A stretch of 34,506 nucleotides of DNA from a virus, in UHGV virus genome UHGV-0828925; one strand, given 5' to 3'. Position 1 is the stretch's first letter. Each line of letters begins with the position of its first letter. Of this stretch, positions 17,915 through 27,707 are shown piece after piece. Under the pieces are notes generated by a model. That model was not told where the DNA came from. It saw only the letters and a list, made by a program, of their open reading frames with translations, and did no database searches. The position numbers and the translations under genes are program-made.

Positions 17915-18114
17915 GTAAAGAATGTTGTTTCTGCGGCATTAGCGAATCAGACGCTGATCAAACATACATTTACTCTAAAGAAACAGGTCGGATGCTGTGT
18001 AGTGACTGCGTGTTGGACATCATAAGATACAAGCATCTTGGATGTTCTGCCAGCATTAGCAATATAGGTGAAGTATATGAAGGGAAAGATATAACTGATA
18101 GAGCAGAAAGTTGA
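17911..18114 (+). CDS. Small Cys-rich protein (possible zinc ribbon)
   Basis: 67 aa with CCFC...CSDC spacing (two Cys pairs); translationally coupled to arc. Confidence 0.5.
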   Translation: MSKECCFCGISESDADQTYIYSKETGRMLCSDCVLDIIRYKHLGCSASISNIGEVYEGKDITDRAES

Positions 18115-18176
18115 AGCCCCAACTGCGGTAACAGTCAGGACTTCGGTATCAACAAATCGGATTAGGAAATATTGAC

Positions 18177-23630: not shown

Positions 23631-24815
23631 TCAGGCCAATTCATCATTCACTCCCTGCGGCGGTTCTGGTAGCAGCATCCAGTACAAGGCGTTCCCTAAC
23701 CACGATAAAGTGCCGTCGCTCAACTCCACGTATTCCCCTTGTACCTGTCCTGCCATATACTCGCCGTGCTTTGAATAAATTAAAACCCAATCGTCTTGAG
23801 CGGGAATTCGCTCACTACAGCTTATCCAGGCATCCAGAGTTACCTGAGAATTGCCATTTACCAAGTCAGCTCGAACATATAGCGTGTCATCATGGTGCTG
23901 ATTGTGGCTGCACCACGTTAATTCGCTTAACTCGCCATCTTCTGGCCATACTCCAGCTGTTTGCAGCCAGATATGGGCTGGCGCATCCTGGCAAGGTGTA
24001 TTAACTGGAAACTTGTAAGTTTGGCTTACAGGTTGGCTACCCTGAAGCATGGCAGCGTGGCAGGCATACTCAACGCCCTTAACTGCATCTGCGCAGTAGT
24101 TATAGCGATTGCATTCCACTAATTTCCGTTTGAGTTTTTCAATTGCCTGCGCGACATCAGCCTGTATTACAGGAACTGGCGGAACGGCTGTTTGCTCTCG
24201 AACGTCATTAGTCGCTATCGGTTCTGCTGCCAACTGACTGGCATATTTGTTAATGGTAACGATAAGCTCTTGCTCAGCCTCATCCAGACAATCACCGATA
24301 CCTCGCCTGTCACCGTCAAAATCATCGAAATCGGCACGAATCTTGGCAACCTTCAGGATTGCGGACAACACCTCACTAGGAATTACCGGATAGTTGGTTG
24401 ACGTTTCCGCGATTTCCCGAAAATTATTGGTTGACGAATTCTTATTTTCCCGAAAGTTTCCGGACTGAAGCATGGCGGCGCGGCAGGCGTTCCAGCCATC
24501 TGCGTAACAATCTCTGTGTGTCTTGAAATATGTCACCGCCCTTGGTACATCGTTTACGTCTATTTCATCCGGCACAACCGGCGCAGGTGAGTCAGCATAA
24601 ACAGGAATAACGTCCGGTTGCTCTTTATTGCTTTCATCCGTTAAAGCCCAGAATAATTTCCCGGCCGGATGTTTGAAAATATAAGCAACTGGATCTGCTT
24701 CCAGCGATGCCAGTGCAATTTCATAAGCACGGCGCTCAATATTGTCTCGAACGTCCAAGCTGCCTATGCGCTCTTTGATTTCTTTAATCAGTTCTTTGTC
24801 GGTGAAAGTGGTCAT
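23631..24815 (-). CDS. Hypothetical protein with internal duplication and DUF551-like C-terminal domain
   Basis: 394 aa; two similar Cys-containing segments (DCYADGWNACRAAMLQSG... and NYCADAVKGVEYACHAAMLQGS...); C-terminal W..SERIP...DGTLSWLGNALYWMLLPEPP pattern typical of DUF551 as I recall it. Confidence 0.65.
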   Translation of the reverse strand: MTTFTDKELIKEIKERIGSLDVRDNIERRAYEIALASLEADPVAYIFKHPAGKLFWALTDESNKEQPDVIPVYADSPAPVVPDEIDVNDVPRAVTYFKTHRDCYADGWNACRAAMLQSGNFRENKNSSTNNFREIAETSTNYPVIPSEVLSAILKVAKIRADFDDFDGDRRGIGDCLDEAEQELIVTINKYASQLAAEPIATNDVREQTAVPPVPVIQADVAQAIEKLKRKLVECNRYNYCADAVKGVEYACHAAMLQGSQPVSQTYKFPVNTPCQDAPAHIWLQTAGVWPEDGELSELTWCSHNQHHDDTLYVRADLVNGNSQVTLDAWISCSERIPAQDDWVLIYSKHGEYMAGQVQGEYVELSDGTLSWLGNALYWMLLPEPPQGVNDELA

Positions 24816-25021
24816 TTGTTAATCCTCAAAACTTTATGCCCGGGCGCAAAAGCACGCGTTTTGTCTTTGCTTATTCGCCAGCCATCCTTGCGCGCCTCTT
24901 TTGCACAGCCAGCCCATGACGTACCTATATACTCACCGAAGTCTGGCGACTTATATTTGCCATCTGTACACTGGAGGCAATCACAATAGAGATGCATGGT
25001 GTAACTTGCAGCGATAGCCAT
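24812..25021 (-). CDS. Small Cys-rich hypothetical protein (69 aa)
   Basis: ATG with AAGGAGAG SD inside track ORF 24812..25093; CDC..C motif. Confidence 0.5.
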   Translation of the reverse strand: MAIAASYTMHLYCDCLQCTDGKYKSPDFGEYIGTSWAGCAKEARKDGWRISKDKTRAFAPGHKVLRINK

Positions 25022-25022
25022 A

Positions 25023-25211
25023 TCACTCTCCTTTAGTGCGCAAGTGGTTTTTCCAGCGGTTTTGCGCCGCGCTGGGCTTTTTGCAAAAACCACAATCCAT
25101 CATCCCGTAATATTTCATCAACCCCATCCGTCGGTTGCTGAGTCTCACCCACTGCCAGACGCCAGGAGCGTTTCTACGAACTAACAGAATCTTTGCTTTA
25201 CGGTTTTTCAT
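25023..25211 (-). CDS. Small basic protein, tandem paralog 1 (MKNRKAK...)
   Basis: 62 aa; shares N-terminal MKNRKAK and C-terminal QNR(W/R)K motif with the ORF immediately upstream; DNA-level direct repeat (T/C)TTACGGTTTTTCATC at both starts. Confidence 0.45.
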   Translation of the reverse strand: MKNRKAKILLVRRNAPGVWQWVRLSNRRMGLMKYYGMMDCGFCKKPSAAQNRWKNHLRTKGE

Positions 25212-25384
25212 CTTACTGCGTACCCTTTCTTCCGCCTGTTCTGTGACGCAGTAGGCTTACGCTTTGCGGCAAAAGCCACCTGACCAAATGGATGGAGTAC
25301 CGCTATCTTATGGTTGCTAATAACCAGCTCCACCACACGCACAGGTCGCTGTAAAAAAAGTCGTTTTGCCTTACGGTTTTTCAT
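25208..25384 (-). CDS. Small basic protein, tandem paralog 2 (MKNRKAK...)
   Basis: 58 aa hand-translated (MKNRKAKRLFLQRPVRVVELVISNHKIAVLHPFGQVAFAAKRKPTASQNRRKKGYAVR); stop overlaps next ATG (ATGA). Confidence 0.4.
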   Translation of the reverse strand: MKNRKAKRLFLQRPVRVVELVISNHKIAVLHPFGQVAFAAKRKPTASQNRRKKGYAVR

Positions 25385-25556
25385 CGCTTTGCTCTCCTGC
25401 GTCTCTTTGCTGCTCGTCGTGCCGCTGCAATACCGGTATGGCGGCGCTTTGGTGCTGGGGTGATGTTGTCAGCCATCAGGACCTGTGGCTTTGCAATTAG
25501 CGCAGAAGCCCAAAAACGAGTCGGGTACGGTAACAAGCCAATACATGCCACACGCA

Positions 25557-26003
25557 CTACTCACCTCCGTTGATGCGAATGCCTGTTGCAATGCTGTTTA
25601 TGATGCTGTCAGTGCATGGGGTAGAAAGCTGGGCATCTCCAGCAATTTTCATGACATCAACATCTGCATATCGAATACCGAGGTGTATCAGACCGGCTAT
25701 ACCTGACTTAAGCCGAGCATTTTCCATAAACAGATCCTTTGCCCGCTGTTTTTCTGCCTCAAGCTCAACGCGCAACTTCCCTACCGTTAGCGCAATATCC
25801 TCGTTCTCCTGGTCGCGGGATTTGATGTATTGCTGGTTTCTTTCCAGTTCATCCAGCAGTGCCAGCGCGATATCTGGCGAAAAGTGCTTCATAAAATCGT
25901 TAAGCGCATTAATTCGCTGATCGAAGGGCATTACAGGTGCTTCACCAGCAATTTTTGTTTTTTCAGCGATTTCACGAAGCTTTTGATAATCAATCTTGCT
26001 CAC
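25557..26003 (-). CDS. Hypothetical coiled-coil protein
   Basis: 148 aa, charged heptad-rich central region; start overlaps the stop of the upstream gene. Confidence 0.6.
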   Translation of the reverse strand: MSKIDYQKLREIAEKTKIAGEAPVMPFDQRINALNDFMKHFSPDIALALLDELERNQQYIKSRDQENEDIALTVGKLRVELEAEKQRAKDLFMENARLKSGIAGLIHLGIRYADVDVMKIAGDAQLSTPCTDSIINSIATGIRINGGE

Positions 26004-26692
26004 TGGTTGCCTCCTTTGCGAAGCTGTTCAGCAATACTTACGCATATCTCTGCGCCTCTAATCAGCCCCGGAACGTTCTTGTTTGGCCCAACTTCACCAT
26101 CAACAAAATCAATCATCGCGTTACGAGCCATATCCACCCCCTGCGCACGTACTTCAGCCAGGAGAGCGTCGGTGGCTGGGGTTTCGATATTAGGTAGAAG
26201 CGCATAATCGCAAATCGTATCGATCGCAGGATCACAACAGTCATCCTCGTTGCGTGGTCGTTCGCCAACCTTCGTTGACGATTGCATGATGATTCCCCAG
26301 CAAATACTATCGACCTCTTCGCTCCATCCATCGCAAGCATCACCGCGATAGTCGTCGATTGCAGCCTCAGCCGATTCGATAGCTTCCTCAGCAGTTTTGT
26401 GCCATTCGAAATTATGCTCAGAGCCATATGAGAAATATGAATGTCCCGCCTTCAGCCCAGCATTCTCCGCTGCCAGCGCCACGCACTTGGCCTCAAGGTT
26501 ATCAATCGTGATTCCAACAGAACGACACTCCCGCAACGCCGTTTCCAGTTTTGATTCAAGTTCACCGAACTTACGGACAAGATATTCAGCGTTTGTTTCG
26601 TTGACCTTTAAATCTCGTGGGATGCATTTGCCTTTCAGAAATCCATCCATCTCAATTAGTGACATTTGTTTCATTTCTTCCCACTCCGGCAC
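26000..26692 (-). CDS. Hypothetical acidic Cys-containing protein
   Basis: 230 aa ORF in an operon-like arrangement on the minus strand. Confidence 0.6.
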
Positions 26693-26835
26693 ATCGCATT
26701 CAGATATTTGTTTTGATTTACTGACGGAAAAGAATTTCTCTTAAGTAATTCCTCTCTCGATGGCATTGGCTTTACGCGTTGGCGAATAATCATTTCTGCA
26801 GGAAGAATGCCGGGGTTGTATGCAAGTCCTCTCAT
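26671..26835 (-). CDS. Small hypothetical protein (54 aa)
   Basis: ATG with GAGGAA SD inside track ORF 26671..26988, immediately after the stop of the upstream gene. Confidence 0.35.
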
Positions 26836-26845
26836 GGTAAATTCC

Positions 26846-27142
26846 TCAGTCATTACTGATAGCGCCATAGCGTGAGCGGTAATTACGCAGGCGCGGGTCG
26901 ATATATTCAGGGAAGTGGGTATATGTGGCTTTACGGAATGGTCTGATTGATGTCTGGTAAATTCGCTCTCGTTCTTCTTTCTCTGCAAGCCATATACAGT
27001 GGCGAAATTCCTTTTCCTCTTTCGTTTCCTGTGGTAGCGACATTATCCGATCGTAGTTTTTTCTGAATTTATCTAGCACCTCCGATACGGATTTGCCGGA
27101 ACAGCGGCGCGGGTCATCCGCACCATACAAAGGCGCTGGCAT
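26846..27142 (-). CDS. Hypothetical protein (98 aa)
   Basis: ORF in the same leftward operon, charged/basic composition. Confidence 0.5.
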
Positions 27143-27158
27143 GTTTTTCTCCTGTTTA

Positions 27159-27707
27159 TTATTTAGCTAACTTTTTCCAGATCGCTGAAACGTATTTGGC
27201 TTGGTGGATGGCATCATCAAGCGCGTTGTGGCGAGTTCCTTTGAATGGCATATCTCGCTTAGGGTCGAATCCTATTACCTTTCCAAGCTCGACGATTGTT
27301 CTTACGTCGCGGTCATTCCACCACTGCCACGGAACTGGCTGCCCTGTCAGCGAATAACTGTTTCGGAGAATAACGCAGTCAAATGATGCTCCATTCCCCC
27401 AAACCTGAACGAATTTGTGGTTAGCGTTCTTTATGATGAATTCAGATAACCATGAAAGAGCCGTTGAAAGCTCCTGAGTGTTGCTGGTTAGCGATTTTCT
27501 GGCTTCTTCACTCTGTTCCAGCCACCATAAAATCGTTGAAGCGTCAGGACGCGCCCGATATCGCATTGATGACTCAAGCGAGATATTTACCGAGAACTCT
27601 TCTCCTGTTTCTCCGGTATTCGGTTCAAAGAATACCGCCCCAATAGAAATAACTGGCGCGTATGGCCCGTTGCCCATTGTTTCAAGGTCAACCATCAAGT
27701 GATTCAT
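27159..27707 (-). CDS. DEDDh-type 3'-5' exonuclease (DnaQ-like)
   Basis: 182 aa; N-terminal MVDLETMG (Exo I D-x-E), later GASFDCVIL and HNALDDAIHQAKY (Exo III H-x4-D) motifs. Confidence 0.75.
   Translation of the reverse strand: MNHLMVDLETMGNGPYAPVISIGAVFFEPNTGETGEEFSVNISLESSMRYRARPDASTILWWLEQSEEARKSLTSNTQELSTALSWLSEFIIKNANHKFVQVWGNGASFDCVILRNSYSLTGQPVPWQWWNDRDVRTIVELGKVIGFDPKRDMPFKGTRHNALDDAIHQAKYVSAIWKKLAK

What the first reader, a model, noticed from the sequence alone, without database searches (positions are those of the whole stretch)
24812..27142. Operon of small genes including tandemly duplicated MKNRKAK proteins
The leftward operon between the DUF551-like protein and the exonuclease holds at least seven short, tightly coupled ORFs (ATGA overlaps). 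Two are tandem paralogs with a conserved DNA repeat (T/C)TTACGGTTTTTCATC at their starts and a conserved QNR(W/R)K C-terminal motif. Such lambdoid regions often hold host-takeover or anti-defence genes, and none of these are assignable from sequence.
Basis: partly seen in the sequence, partly recalled or inferred. Interest (0 to 1): 0.45.

Follow-up and report, generated by a model that had tools for sequence, protein, structure and literature searches.

The report
Prophage early accessory genes, duplicated basic protein
This is the ordinary accessory stretch of the early-left operon of a P22-like E. coli prophage: it carries the known RecBCD modifier Abc2 and several catalogued but uncharacterised small-protein families, one of them a very basic ~60-residue protein present as two diverged tandem copies.

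Summary
On the minus strand, 24812-27142 carries eight tightly coupled ORFs, with ATGA/GTGA overlaps or gaps of 1-16 nt. Two adjacent ORFs (25208-25384, 58 aa; 25023-25211, 62 aa) are true paralogs: BLASTP E=5e-10, and a 21-nt repeat 173 nt apart.

"None assignable" is wrong:
- 26846-27142 is Abc2, about 90% identical to P22 Abc2, whose structure with RecBCD is solved.
- 26671-26835 is DUF2737.
- 25557-26003 is Ead/Ea22.
- The other five ORFs match PHROG families of unknown function.

The MKNRKAK proteins belong to phrog_1380, a narrow family of enterobacterial phages. Members include Stx phages, phiV10 (whose annotators already noted the paralogy), P1-like phage-plasmids and a few virulent phages.

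They are real genes. pN/pS is 0.14-0.18, and the SNRR and SAAQNRWKNH motifs are kept through synonymous changes. They are extremely basic (net +14/+15). The predicted fold is alpha-beta3-alpha and has no structural match.

Their conserved ends coincide with mosaic junctions, and the tail type depends on position in the array.

Function is untested. My best guess is a small nucleic-acid-binding accessory protein. This is an ordinary lambdoid exo-xis-type region and of low interest.

The parts
26846..27142 (-). abc2, anti-RecBCD protein 2 (98 aa)
   Evidence: PF11043 full length E=2.9e-61; phrog_656; about 90% identical to P22 Abc2 chain 8b1t_A, E=1e-55. AGGAG Shine-Dalgarno upstream.
26671..26835 (-). 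DUF2737 small protein (54 aa), function unknown
   Evidence: PF10930 E=2.5e-31; phrog_1117. PGAP annotates the same 165-nt gene in L002.
26000..26674 (-). Ea22-like acidic protein (224 aa from the ATG in the ATGA overlap), function unknown
   Evidence: phrog_614 E=5e-51, phrog_492 and phrog_368; no Pfam hit. PGAP names a shorter (195-aa) ORF at the same position, 98% identical in DNA over the shared 3' part, 'ead/Ea22-like'. No PDB sequence match. A mosaic breakpoint lies near 26185.
25557..26003 (-). Ead/Ea22-like protein (148 aa, GTG start in a GTGA overlap)
   Evidence: PF13935 E=5.1e-23; phrog_368 and phrog_250; identical-length CDS WP_047647121.1 in L001 and L002.
25381..25557 (-). ORF5: 58-aa protein with a moderately hydrophobic N-terminal half and an arginine-rich tail (net +14); real gene that PGAP leaves unannotated
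   Evidence: phrog_13831 full length E=5e-40. Start codon is GTG or ATG in different phages, directly after GGAGG. A 21-nt in-frame indel variant lacks the internal ATG. Of 26 polymorphic sites, 14 are at third codon positions; pN/pS is 0.33 in frame against 2.74 and 1.21 off frame.
25208..25384 (-). MKNRKAK paralog B (58 aa, net +15), internal copy of the tandem pair
   Evidence: phrog_1380 E=6.5e-23; 37% identical to copy A, E=5e-10. Polymorphic sites by codon position are 3/2/11 and pN/pS is 0.14. Present or absent as a clean 173-nt unit: 38 of 82 loci have the pair, and 126 of 602 E. coli genomes with a match carry the full ORF5-B-A stretch.
25023..25211 (-). MKNRKAK paralog A (62 aa, net +14), terminal copy; identical to WP_000797279.1
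   Evidence: phrog_1380 E=1e-40; pN/pS 0.18. AF2 model has pLDDT 80 and an alpha-beta3-alpha topology. No fold match. Its last codons (AAAGGAGAG TGA) carry the Shine-Dalgarno for the next gene.
24812..25021 (-). 69-aa protein with invariant C13, C15, C18 (phrog_926), function unknown
25192..25212 (.). 21-nt repeat copy 1 (start of copy A plus the ATGA overlap)
   Evidence: the repeat finder family D3; pattern search.
25365..25385 (.). 21-nt repeat copy 2 (start of copy B plus the ATGA overlap)
   Evidence: the repeat finder family D3, 95% identity, 173-nt spacing.
23631..24815 (-). DUF551-containing 394-aa protein (downstream neighbour, same coupled block)
   Evidence: PF04448 E=1.8e-8 on residues 329-387; ATGA overlap with the 69-aa ORF.
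27159..27707 (-). Rv2179c-like 3'-5' exonuclease (upstream neighbour)
   Evidence: PF16473 E=5e-73; phrog_255.

Best explanation
SHOWN
- The window is a P22-like temperate podovirus prophage of E. coli.
- 24812-27142 is the accessory part of its leftward early block, the equivalent of the P22 'ea' and lambda/Stx-phage 'exo-xis' region. It lies downstream of the N-like antiterminator, Erf, SSB and an exonuclease, and upstream of the integrase.
- It is a mosaic of mobile small genes joined by overlapping stop/start codons: Abc2, DUF2737, two Ea22-family proteins, three extremely basic ~60-aa proteins (ORF5 and MKNRKAK copies B and A), and a Cys-motif 69-aa protein.
- The MKNRKAK proteins are genuine, selected proteins of a narrow enterobacterial-phage family, phrog_1380.
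- The family has three conserved motifs: N-terminal (K/N)NRKAK, central SN(R/H)(R/K), and C-terminal SAAQNR(W/R)K. The predicted topology is alpha-beta-beta-beta-alpha.
- The nearly invariant gene ends coincide with junctions at which different neighbours are joined. Body and tail types reassort between phages.
- Copy B is present or absent as a 173-nt unit.

INFERRED
- The block is transcribed from PL under N antitermination and translated by coupling.
- The tandem pair arose by unequal or illegitimate recombination between the conserved gene ends, followed by divergence or replacement of the gene body.
- The MKNRKAK proteins, and probably ORF5, act by binding nucleic acid or another polyanionic target early in infection or induction. 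They would be dispensable modulators of host or phage processes rather than structural or essential functions. I put about 0.4 on the nucleic-acid-binding part. The specific target is unknown.
For: Context: portal, tailspike, integrase, N-like, CI-like, Erf and SSB families; sar RNA; no minus-strand terminator-like site inside the block.

Family assignments.

Paralogy.

Coding and selection:
- pN/pS is 0.14 for B and 0.18 for A, with third-position excess.
- ORF5 has pN/pS 0.33 in frame against more than 1 off frame.
- SNRR and SAAQNRWKNH are kept through different codons in phiV10, PhiR12_2, D6, Bas106 and Stx2_EH0505.
- The motifs persist down to about 30-45% identity in 32 family members.

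Narrow distribution:
- 48 clusters among 1.84 billion representatives.
- 146 phage records.
- 602 of 5426 complete E. coli genomes.
- One hit among species-representative genomes.

Junction behaviour:
- Upstream of copy A lies either the B tail or the ORF5 tail.
- Downstream, at least five unrelated genes follow the same GGAGAGTGATATG.
- phiV10 p50 has an A-like body with the internal-type tail.
- P0052 has a B-like body with the terminal-type tail.

Charge: net +14 or +15 and pI 11.3-12.

Fold: AF2 pLDDT 80.

Literature: genes downstream of ea22 in Stx phages are described as variable, partly duplicated and uncharacterised, transcribed early from pL (PMC8614690).
Against: - There is no direct evidence of expression here. 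PL transcription and N antitermination are inferred from P22 and lambda biology.
- Nucleic-acid binding rests only on composition and on the placement of basic motifs.
- High positive charge would also fit binding to an acidic protein.
- DNA-level conservation of the gene ends could partly reflect recombination and translation signals rather than protein function.
Confidence: 0.6

Rival explanations
1. The MKNRKAK proteins, alone or with ORF5 and the 69-aa protein, are anti-defence factors. They would block a host immune system, for example by coating phage nucleic acid or sequestering a nucleic-acid-sensing defence protein.
For: - They sit in the same operon as Abc2, a RecBCD modifier.
- Gene bodies diverge fast between conserved ends, and copy B is variably present, as expected for arms-race genes.
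- Members also occur in virulent phages Av-05 and Sasha. The role is therefore not tied to lysogeny.
Against: - No similarity to any known anti-defence or defence protein.
- Neither MKNRKAK nor QNRWKNH occurs in the supplements of two phage accessory-gene screens.
- Within each subtype, selection is purifying rather than diversifying (pN/pS 0.14-0.18).
- Known studies of the exo-xis region report effects on the lysis-lysogeny decision, not on defence.
Confidence: 0.2
2. The proteins modulate the lysis-lysogeny decision or host physiology, as reported for other exo-xis genes (orf60a, orf61, orf63, orf73, ea22). They might act on transcription or RNA polymerase.
For: - They occupy the same genomic position, directly downstream of Ea22-family genes, in Stx phages such as Min27.
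- Exo-xis genes as a group affect lysogenisation and induction (PMC8614690 section 2).
Against: - The published work concerns the conserved block orf60a to ea22, not these downstream genes.
- Family members also occur in phages classified in a virulent-phage subfamily (Av-05, Vequintavirinae).
- Nothing links them to RNA polymerase.
Confidence: 0.15
3. The ORFs have little function of their own. Their conserved ends are recombination linkers and translation signals at module boundaries, and the reading frames are carried along.
For: - The 5' 20 nt and 3' ~50 nt are nearly identical at DNA level between genes whose bodies are very different.
- The 3' end encodes the Shine-Dalgarno of whatever gene follows.
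- Body and tail types reassort.
- PGAP often does not call copy B or ORF5.
Against: - There is a third-position excess of polymorphism and pN/pS of 0.14-0.33 in frame, but above 1 off frame.
- Internal SNRR and C-terminal SAAQNRWKNH motifs are kept with different codons.
- Open frames are maintained down to about 30% identity.
- AF2 gives a confident compact model.
Confidence: 0.05

Closest known systems
P22 'ea' region and lambda/Stx-phage exo-xis region of the PL operon
   Same: - Same position, between the recombination genes and xis/int.
- Leftward early block of small, overlapping, mosaic, non-essential genes.
- Contains Ea22-family proteins and, as in P22, Abc2.
- The MKNRKAK gene sits just after the Ea22-like gene in Stx phage Min27.
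   Different: This window lacks the conserved lambda block orf60a-orf63-orf61-orf73. Instead it has an Rv2179c-like exonuclease, DUF2737 and two Ea22-family genes.
P22 Abc2 (anti-RecBCD protein 2; PDB 8B1T/8B1U)
   Same: The ORF at 26846-27142 aligns end to end at about 90% identity, E=1e-55. It has the same length and the same operon context, next to Erf-type recombination genes.
   Different: About ten substitutions and one extra residue near the C-terminus. RecBCD binding was not tested here.
phrog_1380: VT2-Sa p08, phiV10 p50 and p51, Min27 p09, D6 orf101, WP_000797279.1
   Same: Copies A and B both match the family profile. Copy A is identical to WP_000797279.1. phiV10 has its own tandem pair, already noted by its annotators as mutually similar.
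   Different: The body of copy B (ISNHK type) differs from that of the phiV10 upstream copy. No member has a known function.
dsRBD / HicA-type alpha-beta-beta-beta-alpha small domains
   Same: - Same order of secondary-structure elements in the AF2 model.
- Basic conserved motifs fall in helix 1, the beta1-beta2 turn and the start of helix 2. From my own knowledge, these are the RNA-contacting regions of a dsRBD.
- Similar size, about 60 aa.
   Different: - hhalign against E. coli HicA gives 0.08% probability.
- The only HicA-like hit in BFVD has E=0.35 and TM 0.21.
- The His of copy B's SNHK is Arg in most family members, so it cannot be a conserved catalytic residue.

Membership tests
Abc2 / Anti-RecBCD_p2 (PF11043) | Full-length match to the family profile above the curated cut-off | tested here: met
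   204 bits against a cut-off of 25, residues 1-98 on profile positions 1-97; phrog_656 E=1.7e-56.
Abc2 / Anti-RecBCD_p2 (PF11043) | Close similarity to the experimentally characterised P22 protein | tested here: met
   8b1t_A E=1e-55, end-to-end alignment at about 90% identity.
Abc2 / Anti-RecBCD_p2 (PF11043) | Binds and modifies host RecBCD | not testable with these tools
   Needs biochemistry or genetics. The structural basis is described in PMC9836394, seen only in the search listing.
Ead/Ea22-like (PF13935) | Profile match above the cut-off | tested here: met
   The 148-aa ORF scores 82.6 bits against a cut-off of 27. The 224-aa ORF has no Pfam hit and shares only phrog_368, phrog_492 and phrog_614 with Ea22-type proteins. 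Its membership is therefore inconclusive.
DUF2737 (PF10930) | Profile match above the cut-off | tested here: met
   107.8 bits against a cut-off of 25, full length.
phrog_1380 (MKNRKAK small basic proteins) | Full-length profile match of both copies | tested here: met
   Copy A E=1e-40 on profile positions 1-62; copy B E=6.5e-23 on positions 1-60.
phrog_1380 (MKNRKAK small basic proteins) | Motifs (K/N)NRKAK, SN(R/H)(R/K) and QNR-x-K at conserved positions | tested here: met
   N3, R4 and R52 are invariant. M1, K5, A6, L9, N26, Q50 and N51 are at least 90% conserved in 32 sequences that include both window copies.
Tandem paralogs (gene duplication) | Adjacent position, same strand, significant protein similarity, repeated DNA at equivalent positions | tested here: met
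   BLASTP E=5e-10; 21-nt repeat 173 nt apart, not expected by chance.
dsRBD / HicA-like fold | Three-dimensional similarity to solved members | tested here: not met
   [not shown]
dsRBD / HicA-like fold | Sequence or profile similarity, and a conserved catalytic His for HicA | tested here: not met
   hhalign probability 0.08%. The position is Arg in most members.
CsrA | Profile similarity | tested here: not met
   hhalign probability 0.1%; no Pfam hit.
Known anti-phage defence system components (PADLOC) | Match to any model | tested here: not met
   No hit with E<0.01 for any of the eight ORFs of the block (best 0.023-0.037, non-significant); the flanking exonuclease gave only weak generic DEDDh/exonuclease matches, E=2.4e-4 and 1.4e-3.

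The most novel reading that the evidence does not exclude
The phrog_1380 proteins, perhaps together with the arginine-rich ORF5, could be a new structural class of extremely basic ~60-aa phage proteins. They would bind nucleic acid to blunt a host defence or take over a host process. Their conserved gene ends would double as recombination joints, letting phages swap or multiply the variable target-facing body.
Probability: 0.2. Interest if true: 0.5.

Novelty: new member of a known kind. Interest (0 to 1): 0.22.

Why it matters
As it stands this is another instance of a well-known kind of region.

Its practical value is modest:
- It corrects annotation. ORF5 and copy B are real genes that RefSeq annotation often omits.
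- It gives a clean example of intragenic module shuffling at conserved gene ends.
- It flags a small, very basic protein family with no fold match. The family is carried by Stx-converting phages and P1-like phage-plasmids in about 11% of complete E. coli genomes.

If the family proved to be an anti-defence or host-takeover factor, it would add a function to the poorly understood exo-xis region of Shiga-toxin phages.

Tried and rejected
- **Pfam, NCBIfam and PADLOC** on all ORFs gave nothing for ORF5, A, B or the 69-aa ORF. A weak zf-C2H2_jaz hit for copy A (E=0.096) was dismissed as chance.
- **PDB profile search** with the 32-sequence family alignment gave no hit even at E=10.
- **CsrA idea.** It came from an apparent resemblance of 'ILLVRR' to CsrA's 'LILTRR'. 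It was rejected by hhalign.
- **ORF5 tail versus MKNRKAK tail homology.** No support.
- **afdb50 fold library.** Not available.
- **Species-representative genome scan.** It returned one locus, a 228-nt contig that is probably a contaminant.
- **Literature searches.** No papers were found for the peptide string, the RefSeq accession, locus tags or PHROG numbers. The motif is absent from the supplements of two accessory-gene screens. One Phi24B exo-xis paper had none of the searched terms (vb_24B_4c-7c, 'hypothetical protein', 'duplication'), so it gave no lead on these ORFs.
- **Rfam.** No RNA family in the region.
- **Tandem Repeats Finder.** It does not see the 173-nt unit because the copies are too diverged.
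- **P0085.** A 264-aa repetitive protein in the representative search looks unrelated. I ignored it.
Full report
**What is there**

Reading the minus strand of 24600-27400 gives eight ORFs between the DUF551 protein (23631-24815) and an Rv2179c-like 3'-5' exonuclease (27159-27707):

| Coordinates | Product | Length |
|---|---|---|
| 26846-27142 | Abc2 | 98 aa |
| 26671-26835 | DUF2737 | 54 aa |
| 26000-26674 | Ea22-like | 224 aa, from the ATG in an ATGA overlap |
| 25557-26003 | Ead/Ea22 | 148 aa, GTG in a GTGA overlap |
| 25381-25557 | ORF5 | 58 aa |
| 25208-25384 | copy B | 58 aa |
| 25023-25211 | copy A | 62 aa |
| 24812-25021 | Cys-motif ORF | 69 aa |

The junctions are ATGA or GTGA overlaps, a 1-nt overlap, or short gaps preceded by Shine-Dalgarno-like sequences. 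No minus-strand terminator-like site lies inside the block. Strong ones lie at about 29.8 kb and 23.0-23.3 kb.

Chance expectation is 0.06. It extends to 21 nt, 173 nt apart. The two proteins are 37% identical with E=5e-10.

**Context**

The window is a P22-like temperate podovirus. PHROG matches identify portal, tailspike, integrase, an N-like antiterminator, a CI-type repressor, Erf, SSB and a superinfection-exclusion protein. Rfam finds the P22-type sar RNA at 18109-18175.

[quoted passage not shown] According to PMC8614690, that region is transcribed early from pL. Downstream of ea22 it holds a variable set of genes, with full or partial duplications in Stx phages. Transcription from PL under N control is inferred here, not shown.

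**What can be assigned**

The claim that nothing is assignable does not hold.
- Abc2 is identified by PF11043 (E=2.9e-61). It is also about 90% identical over its full length to P22 Abc2, whose complex with RecBCD is solved (8B1T).
- DUF2737 and Ead/Ea22 (the 148-aa ORF) are Pfam families.
- The 224-aa ORF matches phrog_614, phrog_492 and phrog_368. In the P1-like plasmid locus L001, PGAP calls a shorter (195-aa) ORF at this position ead/Ea22-like.
- ORF5 is phrog_13831, copies A and B are phrog_1380, and the 69-aa ORF is phrog_926. All three families have unknown function.
- NCBIfam and PADLOC add nothing.

**Mosaicism**

No record covers 80% of the 2.8-kb query. Different segments match different phages and prophages.
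- Window 25017-26185 is 99.8% identical to P1-like phage-plasmids (H2-H4).
- 297 of 715 E. coli matches to ORF5-B-A are on plasmids.
- 602 of 5426 complete E. coli genomes have a match. Of these, 126 carry the full ORF5-B-A stretch.
- Most others match in two pieces that skip the 173-nt B unit.
- Among 82 loci examined, 43 have one copy, 38 have the B-A pair and one has three copies.

**The MKNRKAK family**

The family is narrow.
- A word-index search gave 61 proteins, all from Escherichia or Salmonella sources where a source names them.
- An exhaustive profile search of 1.84 billion representatives gave 48 clusters.
- A scan of one genome per species gave a single locus, a 228-nt contig. That contig is a 99.5% copy of unit B running into a second B.
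- Among phages it occurs in 146 records. These are mostly Stx-converting phages, plus phiV10, TL-2011b, D6, RCS47 and other P1-like phages, the siphovirus Sasha and the myovirus Av-05.
- phiV10 carries its own tandem pair. Its GenBank notes already say that p50 and p51 resemble each other and VT2-Sa p08.

The 32-sequence alignment shows invariant N3, R4 and R52. M1, K5, A6, L9, N26, Q50 and N51 are nearly invariant. The motifs are therefore (K/N)NRKAK, SN(R/H)(R/K) and SAAQNR(W/R)K, with a variable body between them.

**Are they real genes?**

Yes.
- Within subtype, polymorphic sites fall 3/2/11 (copy B) and 5/2/8 (copy A) by codon position. pN/pS is 0.14 and 0.18.
- Between subtypes, SNRR and SAAQNRWKNH are encoded by different codons in phiV10, PhiR12_2, D6, Bas106 and Stx2_EH0505.
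- ORF5 is also coding. Its start is ATG or GTG immediately after GGAGG. A 21-nt in-frame indel removes the internal ATG. Fourteen of 26 polymorphic sites are at third positions, spread along the whole ORF. pN/pS is 0.33 in frame against 2.74 and 1.21 in the other frames.
- PGAP leaves both ORF5 and copy B unannotated in the RefSeq loci examined.

**Conserved ends as junctions**

The first ~20 nt and last ~50 nt of the genes are almost identical at DNA level, even between members whose bodies are very different.
- Upstream of a copy lies either the tail of another copy or the tail of ORF5. In each case this ends in an ATGA overlap.
- Downstream of the terminal copy, the sequence AAAGGAGAGTGATATG is followed by at least five unrelated genes. 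The last codons of copy A therefore carry the ribosome-binding site of whatever follows.
- Tail type depends on position. Internal copies end in QNRRKKGYAVR plus ATGA. Terminal copies end in QNRWKNHLRTKGE.
- Bodies and tails reassort. phiV10 p50 has an A-like body with the internal tail. P0052 has a B-like body with the terminal tail.

This fits recombination at conserved gene boundaries. It also offers a route to the tandem pair by unequal exchange. That route is inferred.

**Function**

ORF5, B and A have net charges of +14, +15 and +14 and pI values of 11.3-12. AlphaFold2 on the family alignment gives a moderately confident model for copy A (pLDDT 80, pTM 0.52). It has helix 4-12, strands 20-23, 28-32 and 38-43, and helix 48-59.

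That is the element order of dsRBD and HicA domains, and the basic motifs fall in helix 1, the first beta turn and the start of helix 2. Three tests failed to support a relationship:
- BFVD returns only a family member.
- hhalign to HicA and to CsrA is null.

I do not file the family under any known fold.

The 69-aa ORF has invariant C13, C15 and C18 and a model of pLDDT 77. It also has no structural match.

Nothing in the searchable literature mentions these proteins. They are absent from the supplements of two phage accessory-gene screens.

**Verdict**

The most likely reading is that these are small early-expressed accessory proteins that bind nucleic acid or another polyanion. I put about 0.4 on that.
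- An anti-defence role (about 0.2) or a lysis-lysogeny modulating role (about 0.15) are the main specific alternatives. Either could be compatible with nucleic-acid binding.
- The 'no function, only linkers' reading is disfavoured by the selection data.

Overall the finding is a correct description of an ordinary, already catalogued kind of region. One interpretive claim, that nothing is assignable, is wrong.

Noticed in passing
window 18109-18175 (-): Rfam sar RNA (RF00262), 68.5 bits, full length. This is the antisense RNA of the P22 immI region and marks the element as a P22-type phage with an ant/immI module.
   Followed up: no
window 25381-25557 (-) and 25208-25384 (-): ORF5 (phrog_13831) and MKNRKAK copy B are left unannotated by PGAP in near-identical RefSeq loci (L001, L002). 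Both show clear coding signatures. This looks like a systematic annotation gap for small basic ORFs.
   Followed up: yes
window 25017-26185; hits H2-H4, H30-H37: This segment is 98-99.8% identical to P1-like phage-plasmids of 90-126 kb. About 40% of E. coli occurrences of ORF5-B-A are on plasmids. The Ea22-like/MKNRKAK cassette has moved recently between P22-like prophages and P1-like phage-plasmids.
   Followed up: partly
L084 (JQCU01000388.1, 228 nt, Acinetobacter idrijaensis assembly): The whole contig is copy B (99.5% to window 25192-25385) followed by the start of a second B unit. It is probably enterobacterial phage contamination. It hints that B-B arrays exist, or that an assembler circularised the repeat unit.
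   Followed up: partly
[not shown]
   Followed up: partly
L086 1322-1692 (phiV10); P0052: Body and tail types of the MKNRKAK family reassort. An A-like body carries the internal-copy tail in phiV10 p50. A B-like body carries the terminal tail in P0052.
   Followed up: partly
L013 2897-4189: One viral contig carries the B-A pair plus a second copy A about 740 nt further downstream. The family can therefore occur twice in one early region.
   Followed up: no
P0022, P0023, P0053, P0054, P0060, P0075 (database proteins): Several database entries are frameshifted versions that read into the alternative frame of copy A (GETQQPTDG...LQKAQRGAKPLEKPLAH, window ORF 25033-25152). Some shift back again. 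These are likely indels in the A/T runs of the gene, or sequencing errors.
   Followed up: no
window 26185/26186, inside the 224-aa gene: A similarity breakpoint lies inside the Ea22-like gene. The 3' part is shared with P1-like plasmids at 98-99.8%, while the 5' part matches other prophages. This is another intragenic mosaic junction.
   Followed up: no
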